The position numbers and the translations under genes are program-made. From Eledone cirrhosa (taxonomy: Eukaryota): a DNA stretch of 64,000 nt. Each line of letters begins with the position of its first letter. Within the stretch, counting starts at the first letter, position 1. The stretch spans positions 248,248,001-248,312,000 of the forward strand of contig OZ024743.1 of the NCBI GenBank assembly GCA_964016885.1, in the 5' to 3' direction. The notes beneath the pieces were generated by a model. It was given only the letters and a program-made list of their open reading frames with translations. It ran no database searches and was not told where the DNA came from. This document shows, piece by piece, positions 2,765-53,770 of the stretch.

Positions 2765-2807
2765 GTAATTTCCTTTCCTCTTCCTTTTTACCTCTTCAGC
2801 CCCCAGC

Positions 2808-5800
2808 ATGGCCAATATAAGAGTTGGATGTGTGAATGCACGCGGCTTGGGGATGTCCTGGAAACAGGGCAAACTCTTAAATGACCTCAGGTCGCACAGA
2901 GTGGATGTAATGGTTATTTGCGAGTCCAGGATCAGCAGCGAGCGCCAACTGGCCCCCATCTTCGACGACTTTGAGATCTACGCATCTCTCTGTCAGCCGA
3001 GGGGTGGGGGTGGGGTTGTCATTCTGCTGCGAAAATACCTGGGTCTTGCCACACAGAAGGTACACCTGGAGGGTCGACTGGTGGTTTTAGACGTCGGCAG
3101 TGGTGAAGGTGGAGCTTTCAGGCTGGTGGCAGCGTATGCCCCATCTGGGACACCGCGACCGGACTTCTTCCGACGCCTGGAGAATTTCCTGGGAACGTCT
3201 CGCTCCTTGCTTTTAGTGGGGGACTGGAATGGTATCCTAGATGCACGTTGGGACTATGTAGGGGCATGTCCCGATAGAGGGGGGTGTAACAGCCTCAAAC
3301 GATTAATCGGCCGATTTGATCTGGCCGATAGATATCGACTAGATTTTCCGACTGTGCCACTGTGGACGTGGATTAACCGTAGCGGAACATCTAGGTCGTA
3401 CCTAGATAGGTTCCTAGTTAGAAATAAGGATAGGGACATATTAAGCTGTCCACGAATGTTCATGGTTGACTATTCGGATCACAAGTTGGTGACCGGAGTG
3501 GTCAACCTTGATAGAACTCATAAACAGGGACCCGGTTACTGGAAGCTAAACTTGTCTTTACCGACAAACAAAGCTTACAGTAAGTGGATTAGAACACTAG
3601 TTAAGCAGCGTTTGACGGGGGCAATTGTCAACAACAGGTGGTGGGGCTCTCTCAAGAGAGAAATTAGAATAGAATCGATAGGTTTTAGTCGGGAATTAGC
3701 ATCAGATAGGAATAGAACTGAAAGGGAATTAACAAATAGAGTAGAAGAGGCGATTAGGAGTGGCAACGTGGCCGGCGTGCTGGCATCAAGAACGGCTCTA
3801 GACCAGTTCTTTGATGCGAAGCACGAGGGCTGCGTTGTCAGGAGTAAAATACGTGCTCTGGGTAACGAGGGAGCCAAAGCTGTTAGCTGGGCCCGAGTGA
3901 CAGAGGCAAAAAGTGGAAACAAGTCCACGATTCGGTCTTTGAAGGACCAGGATGGACGCGTGATCCTTGAACCTGAGCGGATGAGCGCGGCCTTTCAACG
4001 GCGCTTTGCACGACTGTTCGGGAGGGGCGGCGGGCCGGGTGGGGCCATGGATTTCGGTCCATACCTCGACGGTCTGGCGCGGCTCTCGGACGGGGAGGCG
4101 AAGACCTGCGAGAGGCCGATTTCAGCCGCTGAAATAGGGGAAGCGCTGAGCCAATGCGGCAAACGCAAATCTCCGGGTCTCGATGGTCTACCATACGAAC
4201 TTTATGTAGCGATGCCGGGCTTGTTCTCCGGTCTCCTCGAGGCGGTCTACTGCAACTGGCAACAGAACGGGAGAATTCCCAGTTCTGTGACCAAGGGCGT
4301 AGTCACGCTGGTGAGGAAGGACGAGAACAAGGGGGATGACATAGATACCTTCAGGCCCATAACTCTGCTAAACACAGAGTTAAAGATTTTGGCCAAGGTG
4401 TTAGCGAAGAGGTTGGCGCTTGTCGTCGGGAACCTGGTGGGAGAAGCGCAGACATGCGAAATCCCGTCCAGGTCCATACACGACAACCTCCACCTCATGC
4501 GATACATCGTAGAGAGGGTAGGGAACGAACCCGGCTTTGGAGGGGCCCTGATCAACTTGGATCAATCTAAGGCGTTCGATAGGGTTGACCATCGGTACCT
4601 GGATGCGGTGCTCGCGGCGGCAGGATTCAGACCCGTTTTCAGGGGCTGGATTGCTGCAATGCACAGCAGCAACACCTGCTCGAGGGTCAAGGTGAACGGC
4701 TACCTCTCGGAGCCGTTCCAAATCACGCGATCCATTCGACAGGGATGCCCTCTCTCCTCCCTCCTGTATGTGCTGGCTCTCGAGCCACTACTGCGGAAGC
4801 TGGAGCTGTTGCAGGGCATCCCCTTGGAACCGGGATTGCGGAAAGCGGTGTCGGCCTACGCCGATGACGTGACAGTAATGGTGTCTTGCGCCTCGGAAAT
4901 CGGGCAGATCGGCACCTTACTGGAGGAATATGAAAGGTTCACAGGAGCCAAGCTGAACCGGGACGAGTCCGTCGGTTTGCAACGCGGGACGTGGAGGGGC
5001 AAAACGATGCCCTCCGACGGCATCGTCGGACGCTGGACTGAGGGACCGGTGAAGCTGCTCGGGGTCTGGTTCGGACCGGACCTCCAGGTGGAGAAAAACC
5101 GGGACGAGGTAACGGGCAAGCTGTTTGCACTCGCCCAGAAGTGGGCCGAGTGCAAACTATCCCTGAAAGGTCGAGCGGAGGTGGCGAACGCTTATATAGC
5201 GTCCGTCATCTACTACCGCTTGACCGTCGTGCCTTGCCCAGAGAAAACAGTCGCCAAAATGGAGCGCGCGCTCTTCCGATTTCTTTGGAAGAAGCGGGCT
5301 CCTTTGGTGAGAAGATCCATCTGCTGTCAACACCCTTCGAACGGAGGGCTGAGGATGCCGTGGCTGACGATGCGTAGACACGCATTAAGGCTACGGCACC
5401 TCCAGGTATTCCTCACCGGTCAGCCGGTGTGGGCCCTGTTTGTGAGGCGAGCCTTTCCGAGACTCGTCTCACTCACCGAGCTGCAATCCTGGGTCAAGCA
5501 AAGACCGAGAAAAGTGGGCGATTGGCACATTGAATGTGCCCAGGCGCTCACGGCCCTCTGGCAAGCGGATCCGGCAATCAGTGGAGACTCAACCTCAACA
5601 TTCTATAGAGGGTTGGTGCACAGTAAGTGCGACGACGCTCTCGGAGAGGCTCTGGGCATGGAGGAAGACGAGCTGGCCAGTCTGTTCGGTAGGACGTTTG
5701 GCCCGGGTCCGATGGACAACTTCCAAAAGTCCCTGGCTTAGCAATGTTACCGAAAAGCTCTACCCGTTCGGGACAAGCTCTACAGACACGGGCGCCCGAG

Positions 5801-21957: not shown

Positions 21958-24900
21958 TTTAATTTATTGGTCACAAGGGCCGACATGTAGGGGACAATAC
22001 AAAGACAGGGACAGTGGGGGTTTACAATAAGGTCGAGTAAAAGTGCACAATGGCAAAACTAATTTAACAATGAAGATATAAAAATATAAAATAAACTATG
22101 CATAAATATAACAAAATAAATTCCCCGATAGGGGGTGGACGACCCTGGGGTGACTCGGGTACCCCACCAATCCTGAACCACCCTGCGCTTCTAGGGCACC
22201 CAGGGAGAGCACCCCTCTCCTCAAGTTAGCTAGCCTATAGGCGCATAGTCAGAGTAGGCCCATTCACACGAGCCATTCTCGCCACATTCATCCACCTTTT
22301 AGAAAATGTACTGGGGGGCAGCACTTCTCTCTCCACCCTCACCCTCCTTTCCAGGTGAAACTTGAAGAAGTTGATGAGGGATTGGCCGAAGAGAAAAGTG
22401 TCTGTCTTCAGTCCTTTTAATCTGGTCCACCATATAACCTCTTTCGCAACTGCCACCAGACAGAGGAAAATTTCCTGCTCTTCCTGACCTAAGGAAGGTG
22501 ATGAATCGATCTTCACTGTGGACTCGGCCGATAGCCGGATTCGTTCCACACGAGACAGTAGCTGTTCGACATAACTCCACAAGTCAGTAATGCACGAACA
22601 TTGGACAAGTGTGTGCAGAACGGTTTCGTCGTTCTGTGCACATCTTGGGCAGGTCCGTCTGACAGCACTTCCGTGCCTGTAGAGTTTATCCCGAACCGGC
22701 AGTGCCCCCCCCCCCCCCGGTAGCACTGCCAAGCGAGGGATTTCTGGAAATTGTCCATCGTCCCCGGCTCGAAAGTCCTCCGGTACAGACTGGTCAGTTC
22801 GACTTCGTCGAGGCCCAAAGCTTCTCCGAGTGCGTCATCGCACTTGCCCACCACTAATCCTCTATAGAATTCAAGAGTAGAAGTTCCACTGATCGCATTG
22901 CCCGCTTGGTAGAGGGCAGTGAGTGCCTGGCAACATTCCAGGTGCCAGTCACCCAGTTTCGGTCTCTTCTTGACCCAGGACTGCAGCTCAGTCAAAGAAA
23001 TGAGCTGCGGAAAGGCCCGTCTGATAAACGGCGACCACACCTGTTCACCGTTGAGGCAGAATATCTGGAGATGTCGCAGCCTCAACGCATGTCTGCGCAT
23101 CATTAGCCACGGCATGCCCAGCCCTCCGCGTAGAGGGTGCTGGCAGCAGATGGACCGCCTCACTAACGGAACTTGTCCCCTCCACAAGAATTTGAAGAGG
23201 AGCCGTTGAACTTGACGAGGCGCGGACGGTCAGGCGGTAGTAGATGACGAACGCGATGTACGCATTCGCCACCTCCGCGCGACCTTTCAGTGATAGCTTC
23301 CTCCAAGCCCATTTTTGGGTGAGACTGGCTACTCTGCTCGTTACCTCGTCCCAATTCTTTTCCACCTGGAGGTCTGGTCCGAACCAAACCCCGAGCAACT
23401 TTACCGGTCCGTCCGTCCAGCGCCCCACGACGCTGTTGGACGGCATGGGCTTGCCTCTCCAGGTTCCTAGCTGCAAGCCCACCGACTTTTCCGGGTTAAG
23501 TTTGGCTCCTGTCAACCTTTCATATTCCTTCAATAAGGTGCCGACCACCTCGATTTATGAGGTGTTCGACACCATCACGGTGATGTCGTCCGCATAAGCC
23601 GACACCGCCTTTCCACGCCCCGGTTCGAGCGGGATGCCCTGCAACAGCTTCAGCTTCCGCAGTAAAGGCTCGAGAGTCAATACGTACAGAAGGGAAGAGA
23701 GAGGGCACCCTTGACGGACCGATCGGGAGAGCCGAAATGGTTCCGAGAGGTGGCCATTAACCTTGACCACCGATCCTGTACCGCTGTGCATTGCAGCGAT
23801 CCAGCTTCTGAAGACAGGGCCGAAGCCAGCTGCTTTGAGGACAAACTCCAGATACCGATGGTCGACCCTATCGGATGCTTTCGATTGATCTAAATTGATC
23901 AGTGCCCCACCGAAGCCAGGTTTACACCCTACCCTCTCTATGATGTATCGCATGAGGTGGAGATTGTCGTGTATGGACCTGGCTGGGATTGCGCAAGTTT
24001 GCGCCTCCCCAACCAAATCCTCGACGACAAGCGCCAATCTCTTTGGTAACACCTTGGCCAAAATCTTAAACTCTGTGTTGAGCAGAGTTATGGGCCTGAA
24101 GTTGTCTAATGTATCCCTCTTGTTCTCGTCTTTCCTTATCAGCGTCACCACTCCCCTGCTCACAGAACTGGGAATACTCCCATTCTGCTGCCGGTTGCAG
24201 TAGAGTGCTTCGAGGAGATCGGAGAACAAGTCTGGCATATTTACGTAAAGCTCGTAGGGCAGGCCATCCAAACCGGGTGACTTGCGCCTCATGCAGCCGA
24301 CAAGGGCGTCCTGAATTTCGGTTGAAGTAATCGGCCTTTCGCAGCGCTCAGCGTCGACCGTCGAGATGCGCGGCAAGCCGTCAAGGTAGGGACTGAAATC
24401 CGATACTCTCTCTAACTCGCCACTCTCCCCGAACAACCGAGCAAAGTGCTGGCGAAAGGCCTCACACATCCGCTTGGAATCGCTTATCTCGTGTCCGTCT
24501 CGGTCCGCCAAAGACCGAATTGTGGTTTTATTACCACGCGGGCCTATCGAACAGCTTTGGTTCCCTCGTTTCTCAGAGCACGCGCCTTAGCTCCGACAAT
24601 GCAACCTTCGTGTTTCGCATTGAAGAAATGGTCTAATGCCATCTCTCGCCGCTAGCACGTCAGTTGCAATGCCACTACAAATAGCCTCGTCTAACTTATC
24701 TACCAGCTCCTCCTCCTTTCTATTTTTCTCTAACGTTAGTTCTTTGCTGAACTCTACCGAAGTTACTCTAATCTCTCTTTTGAGAGCCCCCCCCCCCCTC
24801 CCCCGCCCACCATCTGTTGTTGATGAGACCCCCTGTCAACTTTTGCTTAACTAAATTGTTGACTCGGTCCCTGTAAGCCTTACGTGCCGGAAATGACATG

Positions 24901-26344: not shown

Positions 26345-26832
26345 ATGTTAATACAACATAACAAGGTCTGTTTATTGATAGATATGAGCATCCCATGGGA
26401 TCTCAATATTGCAGCAAAAGAATTTGACAAGCTACGAAAATATAAAGATCTGCTTATTGAAATTGAGAAAATGTGGCACCTCAAGGCCGTTACAATACCA
26501 GTGATTGTGGGAAGACTGGGAATGATCAAGAAAGGAACAGAACAATATTTGTGAATGATTCCTGGTTTACCCTCTCTGCACGAGGTGCAAAAAATTGTTT
26601 TGACTGGTACTGCATACGTATTGAGAAGAGAACTATCTCTGTAAGATTGATATCCCTCCTTGTATTTACATATGCATATGCACATGTGTATATATATATA
26701 TACTGTTTCTTTTTTATTATAATCAATGTGCTGTATTAACTGGCTTACCAATGCACACTGTGAATTTATTTGCCCTAGGTGTCAGGAAGACACTCGGCAT
26801 ATATCTCAGAAACAATAATGAAAGAAAATAAA
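26345..26832 (+). mobile_element. 3' fragment of an R4/Dong-like RLE LINE ending in (AAT)n
   Basis: CLLIDMSIPWD...KLRKYKDLLIEIEKMWHLKAVTIPVIVG is the RLE C-terminus, homologous to the end of ORF 26882-28510. Confidence 0.7.
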
Positions 26833-26881
<49 letters not shown>

Positions 26882-26885
<4 letters not shown>

Positions 26886-28590
26886 AGTCCTGGGAAACAG
26901 AGTTAACATCAACTGGAGAATCCTTGGGAAGCGTGAAGATCAAGAGAGGTATCTTCCAGGGAGATAGTCTGTCCCCTCTGTTGTTTGTCCTTGCCCTGAT
27001 GCCCCTGACCAGTGTACTGCGAAAAGTGAGAGCAGGATACAGGTTGGGAAAGGGAGGGCTTACCATCAATCACCTCCTCTTCATGGACGATCTTAAGCTC
27101 TTCGGGAAGAGTGAGAAGGAGTTGAATGTGCTTGTTGACACTATCCGTATTTTCAGCAATGATATATGTATGCAATTTGGTATTAGTAAGTGTGGAGTCA
27201 TTGTGATGAAGTTGAGCAGAAGTAACGGAATCCAGGTACCAACAGGTGAGATGATAAAGGAAATTGACTCTGAAGAAGGATACAAGTATTTGGGCGTTCT
27301 GGAGGCTGATGACATCAAGAACAAAAAAATGAAGGAATTGATAAGAACTGAATACATTCGGAGAGTAAGGAGCGTATTAAAGTCACATCTGAACAGTAGG
27401 AATGCCATAAGTGCAGTAAATTCCCGAGCTGTGTCTATTATTAGGTACAGTGCGGGAATTCTGAGATGGAATGTTGCTGAACAAAAAGAAATGGATAGGA
27501 AGACTAGGAAGCTATTGACTATCTACAACATGTTCCACAAGAGGAGTGATGTCGATAGACTCTACTTAAGGAGATCTGAAGGTGGAAGAGGTCTTATCAG
27601 CATAGAGGACTGTGTTCAGATGGAGAAAAACAACCTACACAAATACGTGACTGATAGTAAAGAGCCAATGCTCAGAACTGTACTGAAGGAGGGGACAATA
27701 GGCCAGGGGATGTCCAAGGAGGAAATAACATCAAGGAGAAAGAGCAGCCTTCAGGAAAAATCCCTTCATAGTACCTTCTTTGAGAAAACTGAATTTAGAG
27801 ATCCACAGACATGGAACTGGTTGAAAAGAGGAGACCTTAAAAAGGCTACAGAAGGAATGTTAATGGCTGCGCAGGAGCAGGCCCTCAAAACGAAGTGGTT
27901 GAAACACCATATTTACAAGGAGGAGGCTAGCCCACTGTGCAGGATCTGTAGAGAGAGAGAGGAGACTGTGGCTCACATTGTATCCGAGTGTAAACACCTA
28001 GCCCAGACTCACTATAAGGGCTGGAGACATGATGTGATGGGCAGGGTGATCCACTGGCACCTGTGCAAAGTAAACAATTTACCACATTCTGAGAAGTGGT
28101 ATGAGCATAAGCCAGAGGCGGTGATAGAAAACGATCAGGTGAAGGTGCTGTGGGATTTTAGGATACAGACGGACAAGAAACTGGAACACAATAGACCTGA
28201 CCTGGTGGTTGTGGACAAAGAAAAAAGAACGTGCCTGATTATGGATGTGGCCTGCCCGTTCGACACGAGAGTGCAAGAGAAGGAGAGGGAGAAAATTAAC
28301 CGATACCAGGACTTAAAGTGGGAGGTAAAAAGGATTTGGAACTGCCATGAAGTCAAAGTGATCCCGATTGTCATAGGCGCACTAGGGACTATCTCAAAAA
28401 GTTTCCAGGGATGGTTAAAGAAAATTGGCCCCTTCACGCTTTTTGGAACGCTTCAAAAGGCATGCTTGCTGGAAACAGCAAGAACCCTCCGATACGTCCT
28501 GAATATCTGAGGCTGCAGGTAGTGGCTTGATATTCATTTCAACAAACTTTCCAGTTAACTAACATCAATGACTGAGACTCAAAGAGTAAT
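26882..28590 (+). mobile_element. 5'-truncated R4/Dong-clade non-LTR retrotransposon inserted in an (AAT)n microsatellite
   Basis: Uninterrupted 542-aa ORF: GIFQGDSLSP, FMDDLK, CRIC..ETVAHIVSEC, RHD, RPDL..D (RLE). (AAT)n on both sides (26833-26883, 28587-28617). Confidence 0.92.
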
Positions 28591-38449: not shown

Positions 38450-41139
38450 ATTTCTTTATTAGCCACAAGGGCGCAACAAGAAAGGGGACAATACAAAGAC
38501 ATGCCGGGGATTTTACATACAGTCGTGTAAAAAATATAAAAACAAACAATTTCAACAATCGAAATCCCCAATAGGGGGGAGGCGCCACAAATGGGTTGTT
38601 TAATACCCCGTCGATAGAACAACCCTCAACTCAAGGAGCGTGTTGTGCAAGTGCTCCTTTCTTCCTTTTGCTCTCTTCCTCAACCTACAGGCTTATAAAC
38701 AGAGAAGGCCCAATCACTCGGGCCATTTTCGCTTCATTCACCCACCTTTCAGTAAATTTACTGGGGTGCAGTGCCTCTCTCTCCACCCTGATTCTCCTTC
38801 TAAAGTGATACTTAAAGAATGGAATCAATTGTTGTCCGGAGAGAAAGGCATCTGTCCTCAGTCCTCTCAACCTCGTCCACCATATAACTTCTTTCACCAT
38901 AGCCACCGTACAGAGGAAAACCGCCTCTCTTTCGTTTTTGAAAGAGTCTGGCGGTTTGATACTTACTATGGATTCGGCAGTCAACTGTATTTGTCCCATA
39001 CGCGACAGCAGTTGTTCTGCATAGTTCCACAGGTCGCTTACGCCCGGGCAGTGTACAATTGCGTGCAGAACTGTTTCAATGTCCTGCGCACATCTTGGAC
39101 ACGTCCTCTTGGAAGGATCCCTGCCAGGGCGTCCGTGCCTGTAGATCTTGTCACGAACCGGTAGAGCTCCTCGGTAGCACTGCCAGGCCAGGGACCTCTG
39201 GAAGTTGTCCATAGGTCCCGGGCGGAAAGTCCTACCAAACATACTGGTGAGCTCATCGTCTTCGACGCCCAGAGTCTCTCCGAGCACGTCGTCGCCCTTG
39301 TAACGTACAATCCCTCTATAGAATGTCGAAGTGGAGTATCCACTGATTGCTGCGCCCGCTTGCCAGAGGACTGTGAGCGCCTGAGCGCATTCAATGTGCC
39401 AGGCGCCCATCGTTTTCGGTCTTTTCTTCACCCAGGACTGCAGCTCCGTTAGCGAGACGAGCTGTGGGAAAGCCTGTCTCACAAACGGTGCCCACACCGG
39501 TTGGGGGTCGGTGAGGAATACCTGGAGATGCCGCAGCCTCAGCGCATGTTTGCGCATAATCAGCCACGGCATTCCCAGCCCTCCGTTGGAAGGGTGCTGA
39601 CAGCAGACGGATCTCCTCACCAGCGGAGCCTGCTTCTTCCACAGAAACTGGAAGAGCATGCGTTCCATCTTGGCGAGGTGTTCACGGGGACAATGCACGA
39701 CAGTCAAGCGGTAGTAGATGACGGACGCTATGAAAGTGTTCGCCACCTCCGCTCGACCTTTCAAGGACAGTTTGCACTCTGCCCACTTCTGAGTGAGTGC
39801 AAACACCTTGGCCGTGACCTCGTTCCAGTTTTTCTCCACCTGGAGGTCTGGACCGAACCAGACCCCGAGCAATTTCACCGGTCCGTCCGTCCAGCGTCCG
39901 ACGACGCTGTCGGATGTCATCGGTTTGCCTCTCCACGTACCGAGTTGCAAACCGACAGACTTGTCTGGGTTTAGTTTTGCTCCCGTCAGCGTTTCGTATT
40001 CTTTCAGTATGTTGCCGATCACCCCGATTTCCGAGGTGCTCGACACCATTACTGTCACGTCGTCGGCATAAGCCGACGCCGCTTTGCGCAGTCCCGGTTC
40101 TAGGGGGATGCCCTGCAACAGCTCCAATTTCCGCAGTAGTGGCTCTAGAGTCAATACATACAGAATGGAGGAGAGAGGGCATCCCTGTCGAATGGAACGC
40201 GTGATTGCGAACGGCTCCGATAGGTAGCCGTTCACCTTGACCCTCGAGCAGATGCTGGTGTGCATCGCCTCGATCCATCCTCTGAACACGGGACCGAAAC
40301 CGGCCGCCTTGAGAACCGCTTCCAAGTATCGATGGTCGACCCTATCGAATGCCTTAGACTGATCCAAGTTGATCAGAGCCCCACCGAAGCCGGGTTTACT
40401 ACCAACCCCTCTATGATGTATCGCATGAGGTGGAGGTTGTCGTGTATGGACCTGGTCGGGATTGCACACGTTTGCGCTTTCCCTACCAGGTTCTCGACGA
40501 CAAGCGCCAACCTCGTCGCTAGCACCTTGGCCAAAATCTTTAACTCTGTGTTGAGCAGAGTTATGGGCCTGAAGTTGTTAATTTCGTCCCCCTTGTTCTC
40601 GTCTTTCCTGATCAGCGTTACTACGCCCTTGCCTGCAGAACTGGGAATTCTCCCGTTCTGCTGCCAATTGCAGTAGACGGCTTCGAGGACGCCAGAGAAC
40701 AAGTCCGGCATGCCTATGTAAAATTCGTAGGGTAGACCATCTAGACCGGGTGACTTGCGTTTCCCGCAGCGGCCCAGAGCGTCCCGTATCTCAGTGTCCG
40801 TGATCGGTCTTTCGCAGAACTCGGCGTCCGTGTTCGAGAGACGCGGCAGGCCGTCGAGGTATGAACTAAAGTCCATTGCCCCGTTCGGCTCACCGTCGTT
40901 CTGCTCAAACAGTCGCGCAAAGTGCCGCTGAAAGGCCGCGCACATTTGCTTGGGGTCAAGTAGCACGCGTCCGTTTTGGTCTTTCAAAGACCGAATCGTG
41001 GACTTGTTGCCACTTTTTGCCTCCGCCACTCGGGCCCAGCTGACAGCTTTCGCTCCTTCGTTTCCTAGAGCACGTGTTTTGCTTCTGACCACGCAGCCTT
41101 CGTGTTTCGCATCGAAGAACTGGTCCAGTGCCGTTCTCG
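38450..41139 (-). mobile_element. 5'-truncated young Tx1-like LINE (RT + C-terminus), one frameshift near 40410
   Basis: ORFs 40373-41143 and 38685-40469 closely match ORF2 2808-6239; flanked by ACACAAATATATATTG direct repeats. Confidence 0.92.
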
Positions 41140-41155
41140 ACACAAATATATATTG

Positions 41156-41357
41156 ATTTCTTTATTAACCACAAGGGCGCAACAAGAAAGGGGACAATAC
41201 AAAGACATGCCGGGGATTTTACATACAGTCGTGTAAAAAATATAAAAACAAACAATTTCAACAATCGAAATCCCCAATAGGGGGGAGGCGCCACAAATGG
41301 GTTGTTTAATACCCCGTCGATAGAACAACCCTCAACTCAAGGAGCGTGTTGTGCAAG
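41156..41357 (-). mobile_element. Second, ~200-bp 3'UTR-only copy of the same Tx1-like element
   Basis: Differs from 38450-38651 at about one base; followed by AAATATATATTG. Confidence 0.85.
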
Positions 41358-42226: not shown

Positions 42227-42330
42227 CATAGTAATAATAATAAAATTGAAGACTAAAATCCAAAGAGGGCTCGATAAGGAAAATATATATCAAATATATA
42301 AGAACCGTAGAGCAAATATTTATTAAAATA

Positions 42331-42406
42331 ACAGATTAAAGTTTAAGCAAAGAATCGCTGCTTTCACCCTTAACGGGATCTTCTGAAACTAACAAAGTCA
42401 ATCTGT
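42331..42406 (-). ncRNA. Variant hammerhead-like fold in the PLE 3' repeat (mirror copy 45622-45697 +)
   Basis: AGTTT-CAGAAGA-T CCC gttaa GGG T-GAAA GCA..TGC TT-AAACT, extended by ACAGATTGA/TTAATCTGT; core has U4A. Confidence 0.5.
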
Positions 42407-43318
42407 AAACGCAGAACTGGATATTTCAAAAAACGTTGCAACCGGAGGAAGACAGGAAGACGATACTTTGGTTCGTGGTAACGTTCGCTGGCAAAGAACG
42501 GGAAAAAACGAATAATACGTCATTAATAGGAGCGGTGAAAAACAATTACGCGCAAAGACAAAACCACGTTTATGGTATAAAAGAGGTCGTAGACTAATGT
42601 TCTCTTAGGTGGTGCATAGAGACGTTCTCTGGCAATGAACGAAAAGACGAAGATAATAAGTCACATGTGGAGCGTGGAGAACAATAACACGCAAAGACAA
42701 AACCACGTAAATGGTATAGCAGAAATCGAAGACTAAAATTCTAACTAGGAGACCAAATGAATCTCCGCTACAGAGTTAAGAACAAAGTAAATAAATACAA
42801 TACAGAAGTAATAGAAACAAATAAATACATACACGCAAACAGATACGTACATACACAAGCATACGCAAAACCTTACCATGGGTATACAAAACCACGCACA
42901 TATAAATATGTGTGTGTGTGTATGCTTGTGTACAAAAAAATAAATAATTATATAAACGTATATAAGTAAATAAATACGTATATAACAAGCGCACACGCAT
43001 ACCTACATGTAAATACACGAATGTTCGGAGACGTAAGTCAACTAAAACAAGAAGTACACATATACACACACCCACCATACGTACGAACCTGCACACTCAC
43101 GCGAACGCAAAACTCCCGTATACACATAGCCAAACCCTAAATACCAGAATATGTAAAAATTATACGCTATAACAGTCAAATATACGTACGAGAAGGTATA
43201 CATACCTTCACAAAACATACGGGTAATATATACTTACCTATGCAAATAAGTAAAGGAATAAACAAAACATATACTTAGCTCCCACATCAAGACGTAAAAT
43301 ATCCACGTATAGATCGTG

Positions 43319-45439
43319 CTATCCGTTAGGGTATAACGTGGGGCTGTAATACAGGAAAGTTTTGTGCAATTTATGTTTACAAGCCGAAATTGCCTCAGAT
43401 TTTTTGTTTAAGATGTGGTCTGTGGCGTAGAGTATTTCCAGGGCCTCAGCGGCGCAGAAGTCACATGGTCTTTTATTTCCGTTATACGATCTAGCCCTAG
43501 CTAGGATCTCCCAGTGTAACTTATATTGGGTGTGGTTGTCTTTTAGACTCCAGATATAAGCTGAAAGTGACGTCATATTCCTTCTTAGAGGGTAACGAAA
43601 AGAATGGGTATGCATGTAAAGACGCTGCTTGAAACTATTGGCGGTTAACCCTATGTAGGCCCTACGGGACGTGGGTGTTACAACCTTACATTTGTAGACA
43701 ATGTTACTAGAGAGGCATTTCCCGGATAGGGGGCAATCAGCCCGATTCCTACAATTACAGTTAGTACTAACTACAGGGTTGCACGTGTTCCTACGGCTAG
43801 GTAGTTTAGCTAAATTTGAAGCTGTGATGTTATGTGCAAGGTTAGGAGTCGTAGAGTAAGAAATTTTAATAGTATTTCTATTAAAAAATGTTACTATACT
43901 TATGTGTAGGGGGAAAATGCTTCGTAATAAGGGAAAGAAAGATCTTAGCTAATGGTGTGGCCACCTCCATATTATATGGTGGGTTAAACCAACAAATGCG
44001 ACGGGATCTATATCTTCTAGGTCTATTTTCGTACTCTGTATATGCTACCTTATCGACAAATCCACTTCGAGCAAGAGCTTCATTGTAATAAGTGGAATGG
44101 TCGTTGAAAATGCGCTCGTTGGTGGAAAGACGGGAAAGCCTCAACGAAACGTTTCTTACCAGGTTCTTGGTTATGCTGGCAGGGTGGTTGGAATGCTTAC
44201 TTATGTAATTAAGCGTATCATTCGGCTTTCTATACGGGTAATACAACCCATTCAATAAATTGAGGGTAACGTCGAGGTAATTAACGACTGAGAGGTTGGC
44301 CTCAACCTGTATAGAGAGGTTGAAGCCTTTAAAGAAGGCTGTGAGTTCTTTTCTGAACCTGTCGCAAGCACGAGGTCCGCACTTAGTCATGGTCAAAAGA
44401 CCATCGTCACGGTACAAACCACCGCCCGCGTTGGGGAATTCGTCCTTGATAGAGAAAAGAAGGAAAAGGCCAATAAGATCAGTAACCTCCGCAGAGTCAC
44501 TGGCGCCCATACTCACGTCGAATGGGGTACTATTGGATTTTTTAATCCAAATAGAGTCGTCGAAATTAATCACCGACTTTCGGGCATTAAGGATGACATC
44601 AACTTCAAAATCCTTAACCACTGTGAGTGTTTTAGCGAAATTGATAGCTCTAAGGAGAAGTGGTAAAGTGATGGCTGAGTAGTAATTGTTGATGTCGAAT
44701 TGGATAAAACGGCAATGTTCCTTGTTACATATGCCGTTGAACCAATCAATCACCGCGAAAGAATTGTTCCACAGTGCGAGAGGCGCCAAACTTATAATTT
44801 CAGGTATAATTCTATCAAGAATCGTTTTACTAAGTCTACCTAAATGGGACTTCGTAGGGTTAATAAGCCGAATAGAGGGGTTGTTCGGGAAATTGGATTT
44901 GTGATCCTTCAGGGTAAAGTGGGGAGAGATAGGGTCCAGAGGTTCGGTCCGGTCCAGGATGTTGAGATCAGATGTAATTTTAAACCCAGCATCGTTGATT
45001 TCATTGATGACGCACCGATTAGTTTTACGGTAATCCTTAGTTACAGCATTATGTAGTAGTTGATGGTAAGTACTGCGCTCCACTTGATATAGGTTGCCAG
45101 TTTTGTCGGAATGGACGTGCACGGCGTTAGAATCCTTAATAGAACGAATTCTATTCTTCAGGTCTTGCTGGAAGGAATTGCTCCTATTCCGAAATTTGAT
45201 ACTCCGAATGAGTTCCAAGACATCATTTTCGAAGGGTAGCAATGCTGGGTTCCGCGGAGGGTTATTATAAGTTTTAAATCCAAATTTATCCTGTTTGTTG
45301 TCTGCTTTTCGAAATAAAAGGCACGCCAACGCAACCTTTTAATGAACGCGTCTGTTTTCTGTATCAGGAGTTTTAGGTATGTTTTCCTGCTTGGTACGGG
45401 TATGTTCTTTGTAGAAATATTCAGATGTTGTTGCTGCAT
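43319..45439 (-). CDS. PLE reverse transcriptase-GIY-YIG endonuclease; two single-base frameshifts (~45300 and the T-run at ~43885)
   Basis: STKNIPVP..RLRWRAF, HSDKT, QFDINNYY, MGASDS, LYRDDGL, YLDV; then CNC..CPLSGKC..IVYKC..AYIGLT..FKQR..H, CDFCAAE, CKH. Confidence 0.88.
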
Positions 45440-45722
45440 GATGAATATAAGTCAGTAGAGTGCTCAACCGAAGGAGCCAAGTAGTAAAATATATATATAT
45501 ATTAATGACGTATTATTCGTTTTTTCCCGTTCTTTGCCAGCGAACGTTACCACGAACCAAAGTATCGTCTTCCTGTCTTCCTCCGGTTGCAACGTTTTTT
45601 GAAATATCCAGTTCTGCGTTTACAGATTGACTTTGTTAGTTTCAGAAGATCCCGTTAAGGGTGAAAGCAGCGATTCTTTGCTTAAACTTTAATCTGTTAT
45701 TTTAATAAATATATATATATAC

Positions 45723-48447: not shown

Positions 48448-49053
48448 GGTGGCTGCCAACTCGTTTTCGAGTAGGGCCACTACTTTATATCCATTTAGGA
48501 GAACCCCTACCGATGCGCTGAACGAGTGTGACTTTTCAGTCCAGCCAGTGACTTGAAAACTCTGGTACAAACACTACACTTGTGACAATTATTGACACAT
48601 AGTGCTGGGCCCATGGTACCATGTGACGACAAGTGCAGAGAGATCTCCAGATATAAAGCAATGCCTGTGCCGTGAAGCTTTTATAGTGAGCAAAGGCACT
48701 GCACAAAGCCAGTCCCACTCTCTTAACCAAGATGATATTTACCAAAAAGAAGAACAAGTCAACATCATTGGAAACCATCAGGGTTGCAGGTGTTATATCA
48801 GAGTTTTCCTTCTCCTAAAAGTCTGCCTTGACAAAAGCTAAGGGGTCATCTCTCCCGGTGATTTTGGATGGCCATTGACTCTTAAGAGCTCCTTTGCTCT
48901 TTGACAGGTTTTGTTTTTAGTCCTGCAGGATGTCCAAAGTCACCCTCCTCACCAAGAAACCTTGGTGGGGTTGCCAGTTTAGTCGCCAACGACCCGACCA
49001 TGAGACAGTTTGTACTGGGATACATGTTACCAGTAGCACCAACTGGTGACCTG

Positions 49054-49055
<2 letters not shown>
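48448..49055 (-). mobile_element. ~610-bp non-autonomous RTE-derived element, copy A
   Basis: RTE-type 5'UTR (GGCAACCCC..AGGAGAAGGAAAACTCTGA) fused to an RTE-type 3' end ([17 protein letters not shown] zinc finger); in (TA)n. Confidence 0.7.
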
Positions 49056-49963: not shown

Positions 49964-50567
49964 GGTGGCTGCCAACTCGTTTTCGAGTACGGCCACTACT
50001 TTATATCCATGTAGGAGAACCCTACCGATACGCTGAACGAGTGTGACTTTTTAGTCCAGCCAGCGACTTGAAAACTCTGGTACAAACACTACACTTGTGA
50101 CAGTTATTGACACACAGTGCTGGGCCCATGGTACCATGTGACGACAAGTGCAGAGAGATCTCCAGATATAAAGCAATGCCTGTGCCGTGAAGCTTTTATA
50201 GTGAGCAAAGGCACTGCACAAAGCCAGTCAAACTCTCTTAACGAAGATTATATTTACCAAAAATAACAAGTCAACATCATTGGATACCATCAGAGTTGCA
50301 GGTGTTATATCAGAGTTTTCCTTCTCCTAGAATTCTGCCTTGACAAAGGCTAAGGGGTAATCATTCCCGGTGATTTTGGATGGCCATTGACTCTTAAGAG
50401 TTCCTTTGCCCTTTGACAGGTTTTGTTTTTAGTCCTGCAGGATGTCCAAAGTCACCCTCCTCCCCAAGAAACCTTGGTGGGGTTGCCAGTTTCGTCGCCA
50501 ACGACCCCATCATAAGACAGGTTGTACTGGGATATATGTTACCAGTAGCACCAACTGGTGACCTGAC
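49964..50567 (-). mobile_element. Non-autonomous RTE-derived element, copy B
   Basis: Near-identical to copy A, same termini. Confidence 0.7.
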
Positions 50568-50571
50568 ATAC

Positions 50572-50656
<85 letters not shown>

Positions 50657-50685
50657 CATATATATATATACATATATATAGATAC

Positions 50686-50732
<47 letters not shown>

Positions 50733-50763
50733 CACACATATATATATATACACACACACACAA

Positions 50764-50808
<45 letters not shown>

Positions 50809-50928
50809 TATAGACATAGAATATTCGAAAATATTCTGTATGTTTATAATAAACATTTTGAAGACCTAATCGCTATAGAATAGAATACGTCACGTATTAC
50901 AATTAGATTCTCGATAAAAGCAAGGGAA

Positions 50929-50971
50929 GTAATCTACGCGTTTCATTCTTGTTAGAAATCATCAGGACTAC
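50929..50971 (-). ncRNA. Type I hammerhead ribozyme, first of 9 minus-strand copies spaced 310 bp
   Basis: GUAGUC-CUGAUGA-U UUCU aaca AGAA U-GAAA-CGCG-UA-GAUUAC. Confidence 0.85.
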
Positions 50972-53770
50972 ATATCCAGTGCTTTTATCGAGAATGACAC
51001 AGCTAGAGACTTATAGAATACTTAGCTGTGTACAGGAACTGGTTTGAAAGAGCGGTTGCCGGTCCGGCAGAAATTAGAAATTGGAATAAATGCTCTGAAA
51101 TAGCGATATATATGTGAATATAGACATAGAATATTCGAAAATATTCTGTATGTTTATAATAAACATTTTGAAGACCTAATCGCTATAGAATAGAATACGT
51201 CACGTATTACAATTAGATTCTCGATAAAAGCAAGGGAAGTAATCTACGCGTTTCATTCTTGTTAGAAATCATCAGGACTACATATCCAGTGCTTTTATCG
51301 AGAATGACACAGCTAGAGACTTATAGAATACTTAGCTGTGTACAGGAACTGGTTTGAAAGAGCGGTTGCCGGTCCGGCAGAAATTAGAAATTGGAATAAA
51401 TGCTCTGAAATAGCGATATATATGTGAATATAGACATAGAATATTCGAAAATATTCTGTATGTTTATAATAAACATTTTGAAGACCTAATCGCTATAGAA
51501 TAGAATACGTCACGTATTACAATTAGATTCTCGATAAAAGCAAGGGAAGTAATCTACGCGTTTCATTCTTGTTAGAAATCATCAGGACTACATATCCAGT
51601 GCTTTTATCGAGAATGACACAGCTAGAGACTTATAGAATACTTAGCTGTGTACAGGAACTGGTTTGAAAGAGCGGTTGCCGGTCCGGCAGAAATTAGAAA
51701 TTGGAATAAATGCTCTGAAATAGCGATATATATGTGAATATAGACATAGAATATTCGAAAATATTCTGTATGTTTATAATAAACATTTTGAAGACCTAAT
51801 CGCTATAGAATAGAATACGTCACGTATTACAATTAGATTCTCGATAAAAGCAAGGGAAGTAATCTACGCGTTTCATTCTTGTTAGAAATCATCAGGACTA
51901 CATATCCAGTGCTTTTATCGAGAATGACACAGCTAGAGACTTATAGAATACTTAGCTGTGTACAGGAACTGGTTTGAAAGAGCGGTTGCCGGTCCGACAG
52001 AAATTAGAAATTGGAATAAATGCTCTGAAATAGCGATATATATGTGAATATAGACATAGAATATTCGAAAATATTCTGTATGTTTATAATAAACATTTTG
52101 AAGACCTAATCGCTATAGAATAGAATACGTCACGTATTACAATTAGATTCTCGATAAAAGCAAGGGAAGTAATCTACGCGTTTCATTCTTGTTAGAAATC
52201 ATCAGGACTACATATCCAGTGCTTTTATCGAGAATGACACAGCTAGAGACTTATAGAATACTTAGCTGTGTACAGGAACTGGTTTGAAAGAGCGGTTGCC
52301 GGTCCGGCAGAAATTAGAAATTGGAATAAATGCTCTGAAATAGCGATATATATGTGAATATAGACATAGAATATTCGAAAATATTCTGTATGTTTATAAT
52401 AAACATTTTGAAGACCTAATCGCTATAGAATAGAATACGTCACGTATTACAATTAGATTCTCGATAAAAGCAAGGGAAGTAATCTACGCGTTTCATTCTT
52501 GTTAGAAATCATCAGGACTACATATCCAGTGCTTTTATCGAGAATGACACAGCTAGAGACTTATAGAATACTTAGCTGTGTACAGGAACTGGTTTGAAAG
52601 AGCGGTTGCCGGTCCGGCAGAAATTAGAAATTGGAATAAATGCTCTGAAATAGCGATATATATGTGAATATAGACATAGAATATTCGAAAATATTCTGTA
52701 TGTTTATAATAAACATTTTGAAGACCTAATCGCTATAGAATAGAATACGTCACGTATTACAATTAGATTCTCGATAAAAGCAAGGGAAGTAATCTACGCG
52801 TTTCATTCTTGTTAGAAATCATCAGGACTACATATCCAGTGCTTTTATCGAGAATGACACAGCTAGAGACTTATAGAATACTTAGCTGTGTACAGGAACT
52901 GGTTTGAAAGAGCGGTTGCCGGTCCGGCAGAAATTAGAAATTGGAATAAATGCTCTGAAATAGCGATATATATGTGAATATAGACATAGAATATTCGAAA
53001 ATATTCTGTATGTTTATAATAAACATTTTGAAGACCTAATCGCTATAGAATAGAATACGTCACGTATTACAATTAGATTCTCGATAAAAGCAAGGGAAGT
53101 AATCTACGCGTTTCATTCTTGTTAGAAATCATCAGGACTACATATCCAGTGCTTTTATCGAGAATGACACAGCTAGAGACTTATAGAATACTTAGCTGTG
53201 TACAGGAACTGGTTTGAAAGAGCGGTTGCCGGTCCGGCAGAAATTAGAAATTGGAATAAATGCTCTGAAATAGCGATATATATGTGAATATAGACATAGA
53301 ATATTCGAAAATATTCTGTATGTTTATAATAAACATTTTGAAGACCTAATCGCTATAGAATAGAATACGTCACGTATTACAATTAGATTCTCGATAAAAG
53401 CAAGGGAAGTAATCTACGCGTTTCATTCTTGTTAGAAATCATCAGGACTACATATCCAGTGCTTTTATCGAGAATGACACAGCTAGAGACTTATAGAATA
53501 CTTAGCTGTGTACAGGAACTGGTTTGAAAGAGCGGTTGCCGGTCCGGCAGAAATTAGAAATTGGAATAAATGCTCTGAAATAGCGATATATATGTGAATA
53601 TAGACATAGAATATTCGAAAATATTCTGTATGTTTATAATAAACATTTTGAAGACCTAATCGCTATAGAATAGAATACGTCACGTATTACAATTAGATAC
53701 CAGTTCCTGTACACAGCTAAGTATTCTATAAGTCTCTAGCTGTGTCATTCTCGATAAAAGCACTGGATAT

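What the first reader, a model, noticed from the sequence alone, without database searches (positions are those of the whole stretch)
50806..51115. Array monomer is packed with perfect hairpins (branched, viroid-like fold)
Seen in one unit: AGAATATT-cgaa-AATATTCT; ATGTTTAT/ATAAACAT; AATACG-tca-CGTATT; a perfect 16-bp ATTCTCGATAAAAGCA/TGCTTTTATCGAGAAT clamp enclosing the hammerhead; ACACAGCTA/TAGCTGTGT; TGCCG-gtc-CGGCA; long-range ATCGCTAT/ATAGCGAT. The clamp extends stem I through an internal loop, the position where type I hammerheads contact loop II. Inference: this much pairing points to selection on RNA structure rather than a plain satellite.
Basis: partly seen in the sequence, partly recalled or inferred. 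Interest (0 to 1): 0.75.

Follow-up and report, generated by a model that had tools for sequence, protein, structure and literature searches.

The report
Hammerhead retrozyme with a selected fold
This 310-base repeat carries a hammerhead self-cutting-RNA motif and hairpins whose pairing is preserved among its many copies, and it is most likely a known kind of small jumping RNA element (a retrozyme) that a Penelope-type enzyme would copy into the genome, probably from an RNA circle.

Summary
All seven helices are in the sequence. The unit folds better than 150 of 150 shuffles on both strands alike (z -4.6 and -5.2), mostly through the clamp and hammerhead, so energy alone proves little. Variation is stronger evidence. 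In 110 arrays, variants shared by a whole array damage a helix or the core in 3 of 34 cases, against 60 of 145 single-unit mutations (p=2e-4). Tolerated helix changes keep pairing only on the hammerhead strand. A 61%-identical sister family has 8 of 16 clamp pairs compensated. The unit is a non-LTR retrozyme with a canonical type I hammerhead, not a viroid. The array is two back-to-back arms ending in (TA)n at two fixed sites about 34 nt apart, the Penelope-like-element signature. Both arms share one haplotype (90 shared, 0 discordant) and run through the cleavage site, which favours rolling-circle copying of one RNA. Expression, cleavage and the partner enzyme are not shown. The class is known, and this scan already reported the same family and layout in other windows of this genome. 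New here is the test of selection on the fold.

The parts
50805..53698 (-). Left arm: 9.3 tandem 310-bp units, hammerhead sense on minus; its 3' end (site A, monomer nt ~131-139 counted from the cleavage site) runs into (TA)n at 50568-50805
   Evidence: one substitution (51997) in nine full units
53699..54285 (+). Right arm: 1.9 units, inverted, joined 5'-to-5' to the left arm at 53698/53699; its 3' end (site B, monomer nt 168) runs into (TA)n at 54286-54319
   Evidence: one substitution (54063, breaks a clamp pair)
50935..51244 (-). One monomer in cleaved register: the predicted unit-length RNA
   Evidence: inferred from the cleavage site
50929..50971 (-). Type I hammerhead: 6-bp stem I (one G.U), CUGAUGA core, stem II with U.U at its base and a 6-nt loop, GAAA, palindromic ACGCGU helix III, predicted cut after GUA between 50935 and 50934; 11 copies in the array, all with intact cores
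   Evidence: (Rfam HH9 19.2 bits, below the gathering score 52)
50923..50979 (-). Bulge and 3-bp helix between stem I and the clamp (50923-50928 with 50972-50979): likely site of the loop II contact
   Evidence: the contact itself is untested
50907..50995 (-). 16-bp clamp (50907-50922 with 50980-50995); in the cleaved monomer it would hold the two cut ends together
   Evidence: 8 of 16 pairs compensated in the sister family
50818..50856 (-). AGAATATT and ATGTTTA hairpins, kept with compensatory changes in the sister family
50869..51107 (-). Long-range ATCGCTAT/ATAGCGAT helix (50869-50876 with 51100-51107); its 3' strand lies between priming sites A and B; six pairs kept in the sister family
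50884..50898 (-). AATACG hairpin; the sister family has a different hairpin at about the same place
50997..51031 (-). ACACAGCTA helix; two array-wide A>G changes keep it (G.U), but it is absent from the sister family
51057..51069 (-). TGCCG hairpin, four of five pairs kept in the sister family
51073..51114 (-). Internal copy of the two fixed array end points: site B (51073-51080) and site A (51106-51114); inferred reverse-transcription start sites; among the most conserved stretches between the two families

Best explanation
The unit is a young, dispersed, hammerhead-bearing non-coding repeat (a non-LTR retrozyme) whose helices are preserved among the variants passed on to new arrays, likely because each new array was reverse-transcribed from one folded RNA, probably a 310-nt circle, by a Penelope-type enzyme. 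Shown: intact hammerhead cores, strand-specific preservation of pairing, covariation with a sister family, a two-armed layout with two fixed ends in (TA)n, and one haplotype per array. Inferred steps: (1) arrays are transcribed as multimers. (2) Neighbouring hammerheads pair through the palindromic helix III and cut out monomers; a lone circle would cut poorly and so persist. (3) Stem I and the clamp hold the cut ends together for ligation, probably by a host ligase. (4) A Penelope-type RT/GIY-YIG protein cuts both strands of a (TA)n tract and primes from each end at one of two internal sites about 34 nt apart, copying round the template until it falls off. (5) The two cDNAs are joined head to head by short microhomology.
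For: Fold: 3 of 34 array-wide variants versus 60 of 145 single-unit variants damage a helix or core base, p=2e-4; without A>G changes p=0.003; peripheral hairpins alone p=0.02. In-helix changes keep pairing in 8 of 11 cases on the hammerhead strand but 2 of 11 on the other. Common variants sit at core position 7, in loop II, or turn the U.U at the base of stem II into A-U. The sister family has 17 of 71 pairs with double changes, against 2-3 in slid controls. The double hammerhead pairs in the predicted dimer with probability 0.89-0.98, as described for canonical animal type I motifs (PMC4209133). Insertion: 45 of 45 outward-facing end pairs on 121 Mb of C1 are A+B. In sets not chosen for both ends the counts are 10 of 10, 12 of 12 and 19 of 19. 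This matches the PLE tail and inverted 5' copy (PMC8557442) and the two internal RT start sites with both-strand extension shown in vitro (PMC11167929). Template: 90 variants shared by both arms, 0 discordant, while two random arrays differ 86% of the time. 105 of 117 arms exceed one unit (maximum 27), and 0 of 118 inner breakpoints fall at the cleavage site. Young PLEs are abundant in the genome and end in (TA)n.
Against: No RNA, cleavage or circle was observed. No sequence similarity was found between the retrozyme and the 3' ends of two PLE families tested, so the partner is unidentified. The second set of 40 arrays supports the selection test only weakly on its own (p=0.046), and not at all when restricted to variants unseen in the first set (2 of 9 versus 23 of 64, p=0.71). 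Covariation rests on one family-to-family comparison. Mosaic arrays do not fit a single monomeric circle without template switching: L121 and L166a change haplotype in mid-arm, and four arrays share a one-unit variant across arms. An uncut multimeric transcript would also give no breakpoints at the cleavage site. All 110 arrays but the window's come from the first 210 Mb of C1, and most were picked by an end pattern.
Confidence: 0.68

Rival explanations
1. Same element and enzyme, but the template is an uncut linear multimeric transcript (or cut monomers with template jumps), not a circle; the fold serves cleavage or protein binding.
For: Mid-arm haplotype switches in L121 and L166a; one-unit variants shared across arms in L035b, L094, L102 and L130. 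Unprocessed RNA was the main substrate of an anole PLE in vitro (PMC11167929).
Against: 29 of 38 haplotypes are seen once yet fill whole arrays and both arms, which needs a one-unit bottleneck followed by repeated copying. No breakpoint lies at the cleavage site, where cut linear templates would end (0 of 118, 1.9 expected, a weak test).
Confidence: 0.2
2. The variant pattern reflects A-to-I editing of double-stranded RNA written back into DNA, not selection on the fold.
For: 7 of 8 pair-keeping array-wide changes are A>G and none is C>T, against 3 and 11 among single-unit changes (p=0.001). A>G is 9 of 30 tolerated array-wide substitutions against 7 of 71 (p=0.017). A>G at nt 20, 259 and 276 recurs on 2, 2 and 4 haplotype backgrounds.
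Against: The deficit of damaging variants remains without A>G (3 of 25 versus 59 of 137, p=0.003). Compensatory changes in the sister family include transversions. A-U to G.U costs less energy than C-G to U.G, and template switching can also cause recurrence. Editing still implies a paired RNA on this strand, so it adds to the main reading more than it replaces it.
Confidence: 0.07
3. A DNA-level repeat (plain satellite or hairpin-rich DNA element) amplified by unequal exchange; the helices are by-products or act as DNA cruciforms.
For: The fold energy is strand-symmetric. Three of 59 junctions lie exactly at a 16-nt self-complementary helix. The short hairpins are individually within chance.
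Against: Arrays are dispersed (1262 site-A ends genome-wide against 9 in the reversed control), with fixed ends and shared haplotypes across an inversion. The tolerated changes make G.U on one strand and C.A mismatches on the other. The catalytic core is spared.
Confidence: 0.03
4. An autonomously replicating viroid-like RNA that is only occasionally integrated.
For: Size, 60% pairing and rapid haplotype turnover fit; no promoter was looked for or identified in the unit.
Against: A hammerhead was found in one polarity only. Thousands of young DNA copies can supply the RNA.
Confidence: 0.02

Closest known systems
Metazoan non-LTR retrozymes of coral, mussel and axolotl (Cervera and de la Pena 2020, PMC7229834, parts 2-4 of 6 read; Li et al. 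2026, bioRxiv 10.64898/2026.07.22.740005, parts 1-3 of 5 read)
   Same: Tandem units of 150-450 bp, low GC, one type I hammerhead per unit, self-paired branched predicted fold. Helix III is short and palindromic as in axolotl HHR_Amex1, and stem II has a basal U.U as in HHR_Amex2.
   Different: Expression and cleavage are untested here. The parts read propose, but do not show, PLE mobilisation and rolling-circle copying. They describe neither two-armed arrays with fixed ends nor a test of selection on the fold. No homology to a PLE pLTR was found, unlike 21 PLE matches among 57 Xenopus families.
Penelope-like elements (Craig et al. 2021, PMC8557442, passages; Frangieh et al. 2024, PMC11167929, parts 1-3 of 4)
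   Same: Inverted 5'-truncated copy, 30-40 bp tail between two internal RT start sites, AT-rich or (TA)n targets.
   Different: No ORF; canonical rather than minimal hammerhead; both arms are multimers of a 310-nt unit.
Hammerhead viroids (Avsunviroidae; family features recalled)
   Same: Size, high self-pairing, hammerhead, dimer-dependent cleavage logic.
   Different: One ribozyme polarity only, genome-encoded in thousands of copies, spread through DNA insertion.

Membership tests
non-LTR retrozyme | tandem units of 150-450 bp, GC below 50%, dispersed | tested here: met
   310 bp, about 34% GC, 4581 exact core matches and 1262 site-A ends genome-wide
non-LTR retrozyme | type I hammerhead in each unit | tested here: met
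   11 of 11 intact cores in the array; Rfam HH9 match is below gathering
non-LTR retrozyme | non-coding, no LTR/PBS/PPT | tested here: inconclusive
   no open frame of 200 codons or more in the array; shorter frames, PBS and PPT were not searched
non-LTR retrozyme | target-site duplication longer than 4 bp | tested here: inconclusive
   both ends lie in (TA)n, so a duplication cannot be read
non-LTR retrozyme | self-cleavage and accumulation as circular RNA | not testable with these tools
   needs in vitro transcription and northern blot or RNase R RT-PCR
canonical type I hammerhead | core, 6-bp helix I, 4-bp helix II, 1-2 bp palindromic helix III | tested here: met
   against the description in PMC4209133; helix II has three Watson-Crick pairs plus U.U (A-U in 18 of 110 arrays)
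canonical type I hammerhead | loop I-loop II tertiary contact | tested here: inconclusive
   bulge after 6 bp, 6-nt loop II ending in A and a U after stem I align to the HH9 consensus; neither base varies array-wide; which bases make the contact is recalled, not read in a paper
PLE-mobilised element | inverted 5'-truncated copy and two end sites 30-40 nt apart | tested here: met
   ends at nt 131-139 and 165-172, always one of each
PLE-mobilised element | AT-rich or (TA)n target | tested here: met
PLE derivative (pLTR origin) | sequence similarity to the pLTR of an autonomous PLE | tested here: not met
   no alignment above shuffles with 2 PLE families; other families not tested, so it is filed as working like PLE cargo, not as a pLTR derivative
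hammerhead viroid | ribozymes in both polarities, no genomic DNA form | tested here: not met
hammerhead viroid | RNA-to-RNA replication | not testable with these tools
   needs strand-specific RNA data

The most novel reading that the evidence does not exclude
Each two-armed array is a DNA fossil of one RNA circle, read round and round by both halves of a dimeric Penelope reverse transcriptase. The genome's 1,000+ arrays would then be a natural mutational scan of a circular RNA's fold, and the recurrent A>G changes in its helices would be ADAR edits written back into the germ line.
Probability: 0.3. Interest if true: 0.78.

Novelty: new member of a known kind. Interest (0 to 1): 0.52.

Why it matters
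The fold itself is expected for this class. What matters is that the genome holds an internal control (inherited versus after-insertion mutations) showing that the fold is under selection on one strand. The insertions also carry the PLE two-site signature. This makes two open questions testable with an existing in vitro PLE assay: which enzyme moves animal retrozymes, and whether the circle is the template. If A>G edits are inherited, it would be a route from RNA editing into the genome.

Tried and rejected
Rfam at gathering threshold: 0 matches in the window. A DNA search of the own genome returned nothing, not even the window's own copy, probably because common words are skipped; patterns were used instead. 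Sequencing runs: no RNA holder listed. 20 of 24 listed runs from 16 studies hold 76-100% of the words. Of 8 runs laid, four hold one 340-nt (310+30) closed contig and one raw-read DNA run gave no test; contigs cannot tell a tandem repeat from a circle, so nothing is concluded. The changes in those contigs fall at monomer nt 131, 199, 287 and 295. The idea that the 272-bp insert at the L037 junction is a captured GIY-YIG piece was rejected. A PLE next to the retrozyme arm in L033/L161 lies across a 200-N assembly gap, so linkage is not shown. MFE as evidence of strand or of RNA was rejected. An apparent pile-up of breakpoints at the cleavage site (three HSPs starting at nt 1) vanished on exact extension. 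Rows dropped before counts: L119 (duplicate of L086) and the old sister copy in L111; L071 (complex junction) from the junction count; alignments under 22 nt; variants at places covered by fewer than 3 units; 13 intermediate-frequency variants. L035 and L036 overlap by 400 bp and were merged. A look-up of earlier notes by sequence gave nothing. The structural review PMC4008931 was not held. Supplements of PMC7229834 were not read and those of the bioRxiv preprint are closed; they may show array ends.

Full report
Observation. The finding's unit is the first of 9.3 tandem 310-bp units (50805-53698). These are followed by 1.9 inverted units (53699-54285), with (TA)n on both sides. All seven helices named are exact. 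The circular fold is -67.8 kcal/mol on the hammerhead strand (z -4.6) and -77.9 on the other (z -5.2), 0 of 150 shuffles each. The signal is mostly clamp plus hammerhead: the other 221 nt give z -2.3, within the range of 23 background stretches (lowest -3.7). Energy therefore shows inverted repeats, not RNA function.

The ribozyme. On the minus strand each unit holds a type I hammerhead: 6-bp stem I, a CUGAUGA core, stem II with a basal U.U and a 6-nt loop, a palindromic helix III, and a predicted cut after GUA at 50935/50934. This fits the canonical animal type I design, which cuts efficiently only as a dimer (PMC4209133, passages). Folding 1.3 units gives the double hammerhead with pair probabilities of 0.89-0.98. 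Stem I continues through a bulge and a 3-bp helix into the clamp. No hammerhead was found in the other polarity.

The family. The 32-nt core occurs exactly 4581 times in the 3-Gb genome, with 0 in the control. A pattern for other bases at 10.1 gives 4089 matches, 98 of the 100 listed being the A-U variant of this family; the rest may include other families. I examined 110 arrays: the window's and 109 from the first 210 Mb of C1. Single-unit variation is 0.05%, so the family is young.

Test of selection on the fold. The helices and core bases were fixed in advance from the finding and the hammerhead. Variants in at least 80% of an array's units (inherited through the template) were compared with variants in one unit (arisen later, or errors). 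Damaging variants were 3 of 34 versus 60 of 145 (p=2e-4); without A>G changes 3 of 25 versus 59 of 137 (p=0.003). By region: peripheral hairpins p=0.02, clamp alone p=0.29, hammerhead stems alone p=0.065. In-helix inherited changes keep a pair in 8 of 11 cases on the hammerhead strand and 2 of 11 on the other strand, which points to RNA of that polarity. The first set of 70 loci gave 1 of 25 versus 37 of 83. The second set of 40 gave p=0.046, and p=0.71 for variants new to it, so replication is modest.

Covariation. A sister family (685 exact motif matches; 320 nt, 61% identical) has the same two end sites and folds at z -6.6. In an alignment of the window unit with five sister copies, 17 of 71 pairs change on both sides, against 2-3 in slid controls. 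The clamp has 8 of 16, the AGAATATT helix 2 and the ATGTTTA helix 1; the ACACAGCTA helix is lost. This is one family-level contrast, not many independent events. Most sister copies have U3-A8 in place of C3-G8, a known core covariation (PMC4209133).

How it inserts. Arrays are mostly two arms joined 5' to 5'; 10 of the first 70 loci showed one arm only. The outer ends fall at monomer nt 131-139 (A) or 165-172 (B), not at the cleavage site. Of outward-facing end pairs on 121 Mb, 45 of 45 are A+B. In sets not chosen for both ends the counts are 10 of 10 (picked by core), 12 of 12 (picked by B) and 19 of 19 (picked by A). Inner breakpoints are uniform (KS p=0.31), 0 of 118 at the cleavage site. 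Junctions show 0-5 nt overlap in 42 of 59 cases, and 3 use a 16-nt helix. PLE insertions show an inverted truncated copy and a 30-40 bp tail (PMC8557442, passages). An anole PLE protein cuts and extends both strands of AT-rich DNA and starts at two internal sites that bound the tail (PMC11167929, parts 1-3). Young PLEs are plentiful here (150 of 150 scored candidates match at 91-100% identity) and end in (TA)n. Neither family tested resembles the retrozyme in sequence.

The template. Both arms share the array's variants (90 shared, 0 discordant), though two random arrays differ 86% of the time. Arms average 4.5 units and reach 27. Rare haplotypes fill whole arrays, which needs a one-unit bottleneck and repeated copying: a circle is the simplest reading. 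Two arrays switch haplotype in mid-arm and four share a one-unit variant across arms, so template switching or multimeric templates also occur.

A>G excess. A>G makes up 9 of 30 tolerated inherited substitutions against 7 of 71 sporadic ones (p=0.017) and recurs on several backgrounds. Editing of the paired RNA is a possible cause; it is untested.

Comparison and novelty. This is a new member of the animal non-LTR retrozymes (PMC7229834; bioRxiv 10.64898/2026.07.22.740005), for which self-paired circles are described and PLE mobilisation is proposed (also PMC7761336, passages). Searches listed no paper whose title or abstract start describes two-armed fixed-end retrozyme arrays or a selection test on their fold. 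Most subscription papers are not in the library, and supplements were not seen. PMC6155905 and PMC3088659 were seen as passages only. Unreviewed notes of this scan already report this family, the layout, the sister core and A-to-G marks in other windows of the genome. I had noted these readings before that look-up. Their label 'cephalopod' was not tested here. Verdict: observation confirmed, inference of RNA-level selection supported, class known; interest 0.52.

Noticed in passing
window 48449-49055, 49965-50567 (+) and 54990-55603, 56879-57460 (-): Four copies of a ~600-bp repeat (93-95% alike) separated by (TA)n lie in mirror order around the retrozyme array; the same repeat occurs in six other fetched loci. 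Possibly another two-armed element into whose centre the array inserted.
   Followed up: partly
window 42250-45705, minus strand: A PLE-like element (RT and GIY-YIG-like frames at 43884-45338 and 43322-43948; Pfam gave no significant match) with an inverted truncated 5' copy and two different end points in (TA)n.
   Followed up: partly
window 46325 (-), 46746 (+), 59528 (+): Another hammerhead-like motif with a UUGAAAA core (U3-A8 type); two copies are head to head within (TA)n.
   Followed up: no
L156:1201-1840; L145-L147: Older 320-nt sister retrozyme family with a U3-A8 core, a longer palindromic helix III and the same two end sites; mostly short two-armed copies.
   Followed up: yes
L161:981-3780: Young PLE with RT, a Cys-rich linker, GIY-YIG and a minimal hammerhead in its 3' repeat, facing away from a retrozyme arm across a 200-N gap.
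   Followed up: partly
L121 and L166: Arrays that change haplotype in mid-arm, with the inner units matching the other arm.
   Followed up: partly
L037:3099-3370: 272 bp of unrelated sequence captured at the junction of the two arms; origin unknown.
   Followed up: partly
L111: about 1990-2160: A further short two-armed element with a hammerhead-like core and a long stem II, inserted in (TA)n (seen in the output).
   Followed up: no
window 2769-5738, 22516-24586, 26822-28507, 38688-41161, 61767-63617: Several LINE-type reverse-transcriptase frames, judged by eye from the translations.
   Followed up: no
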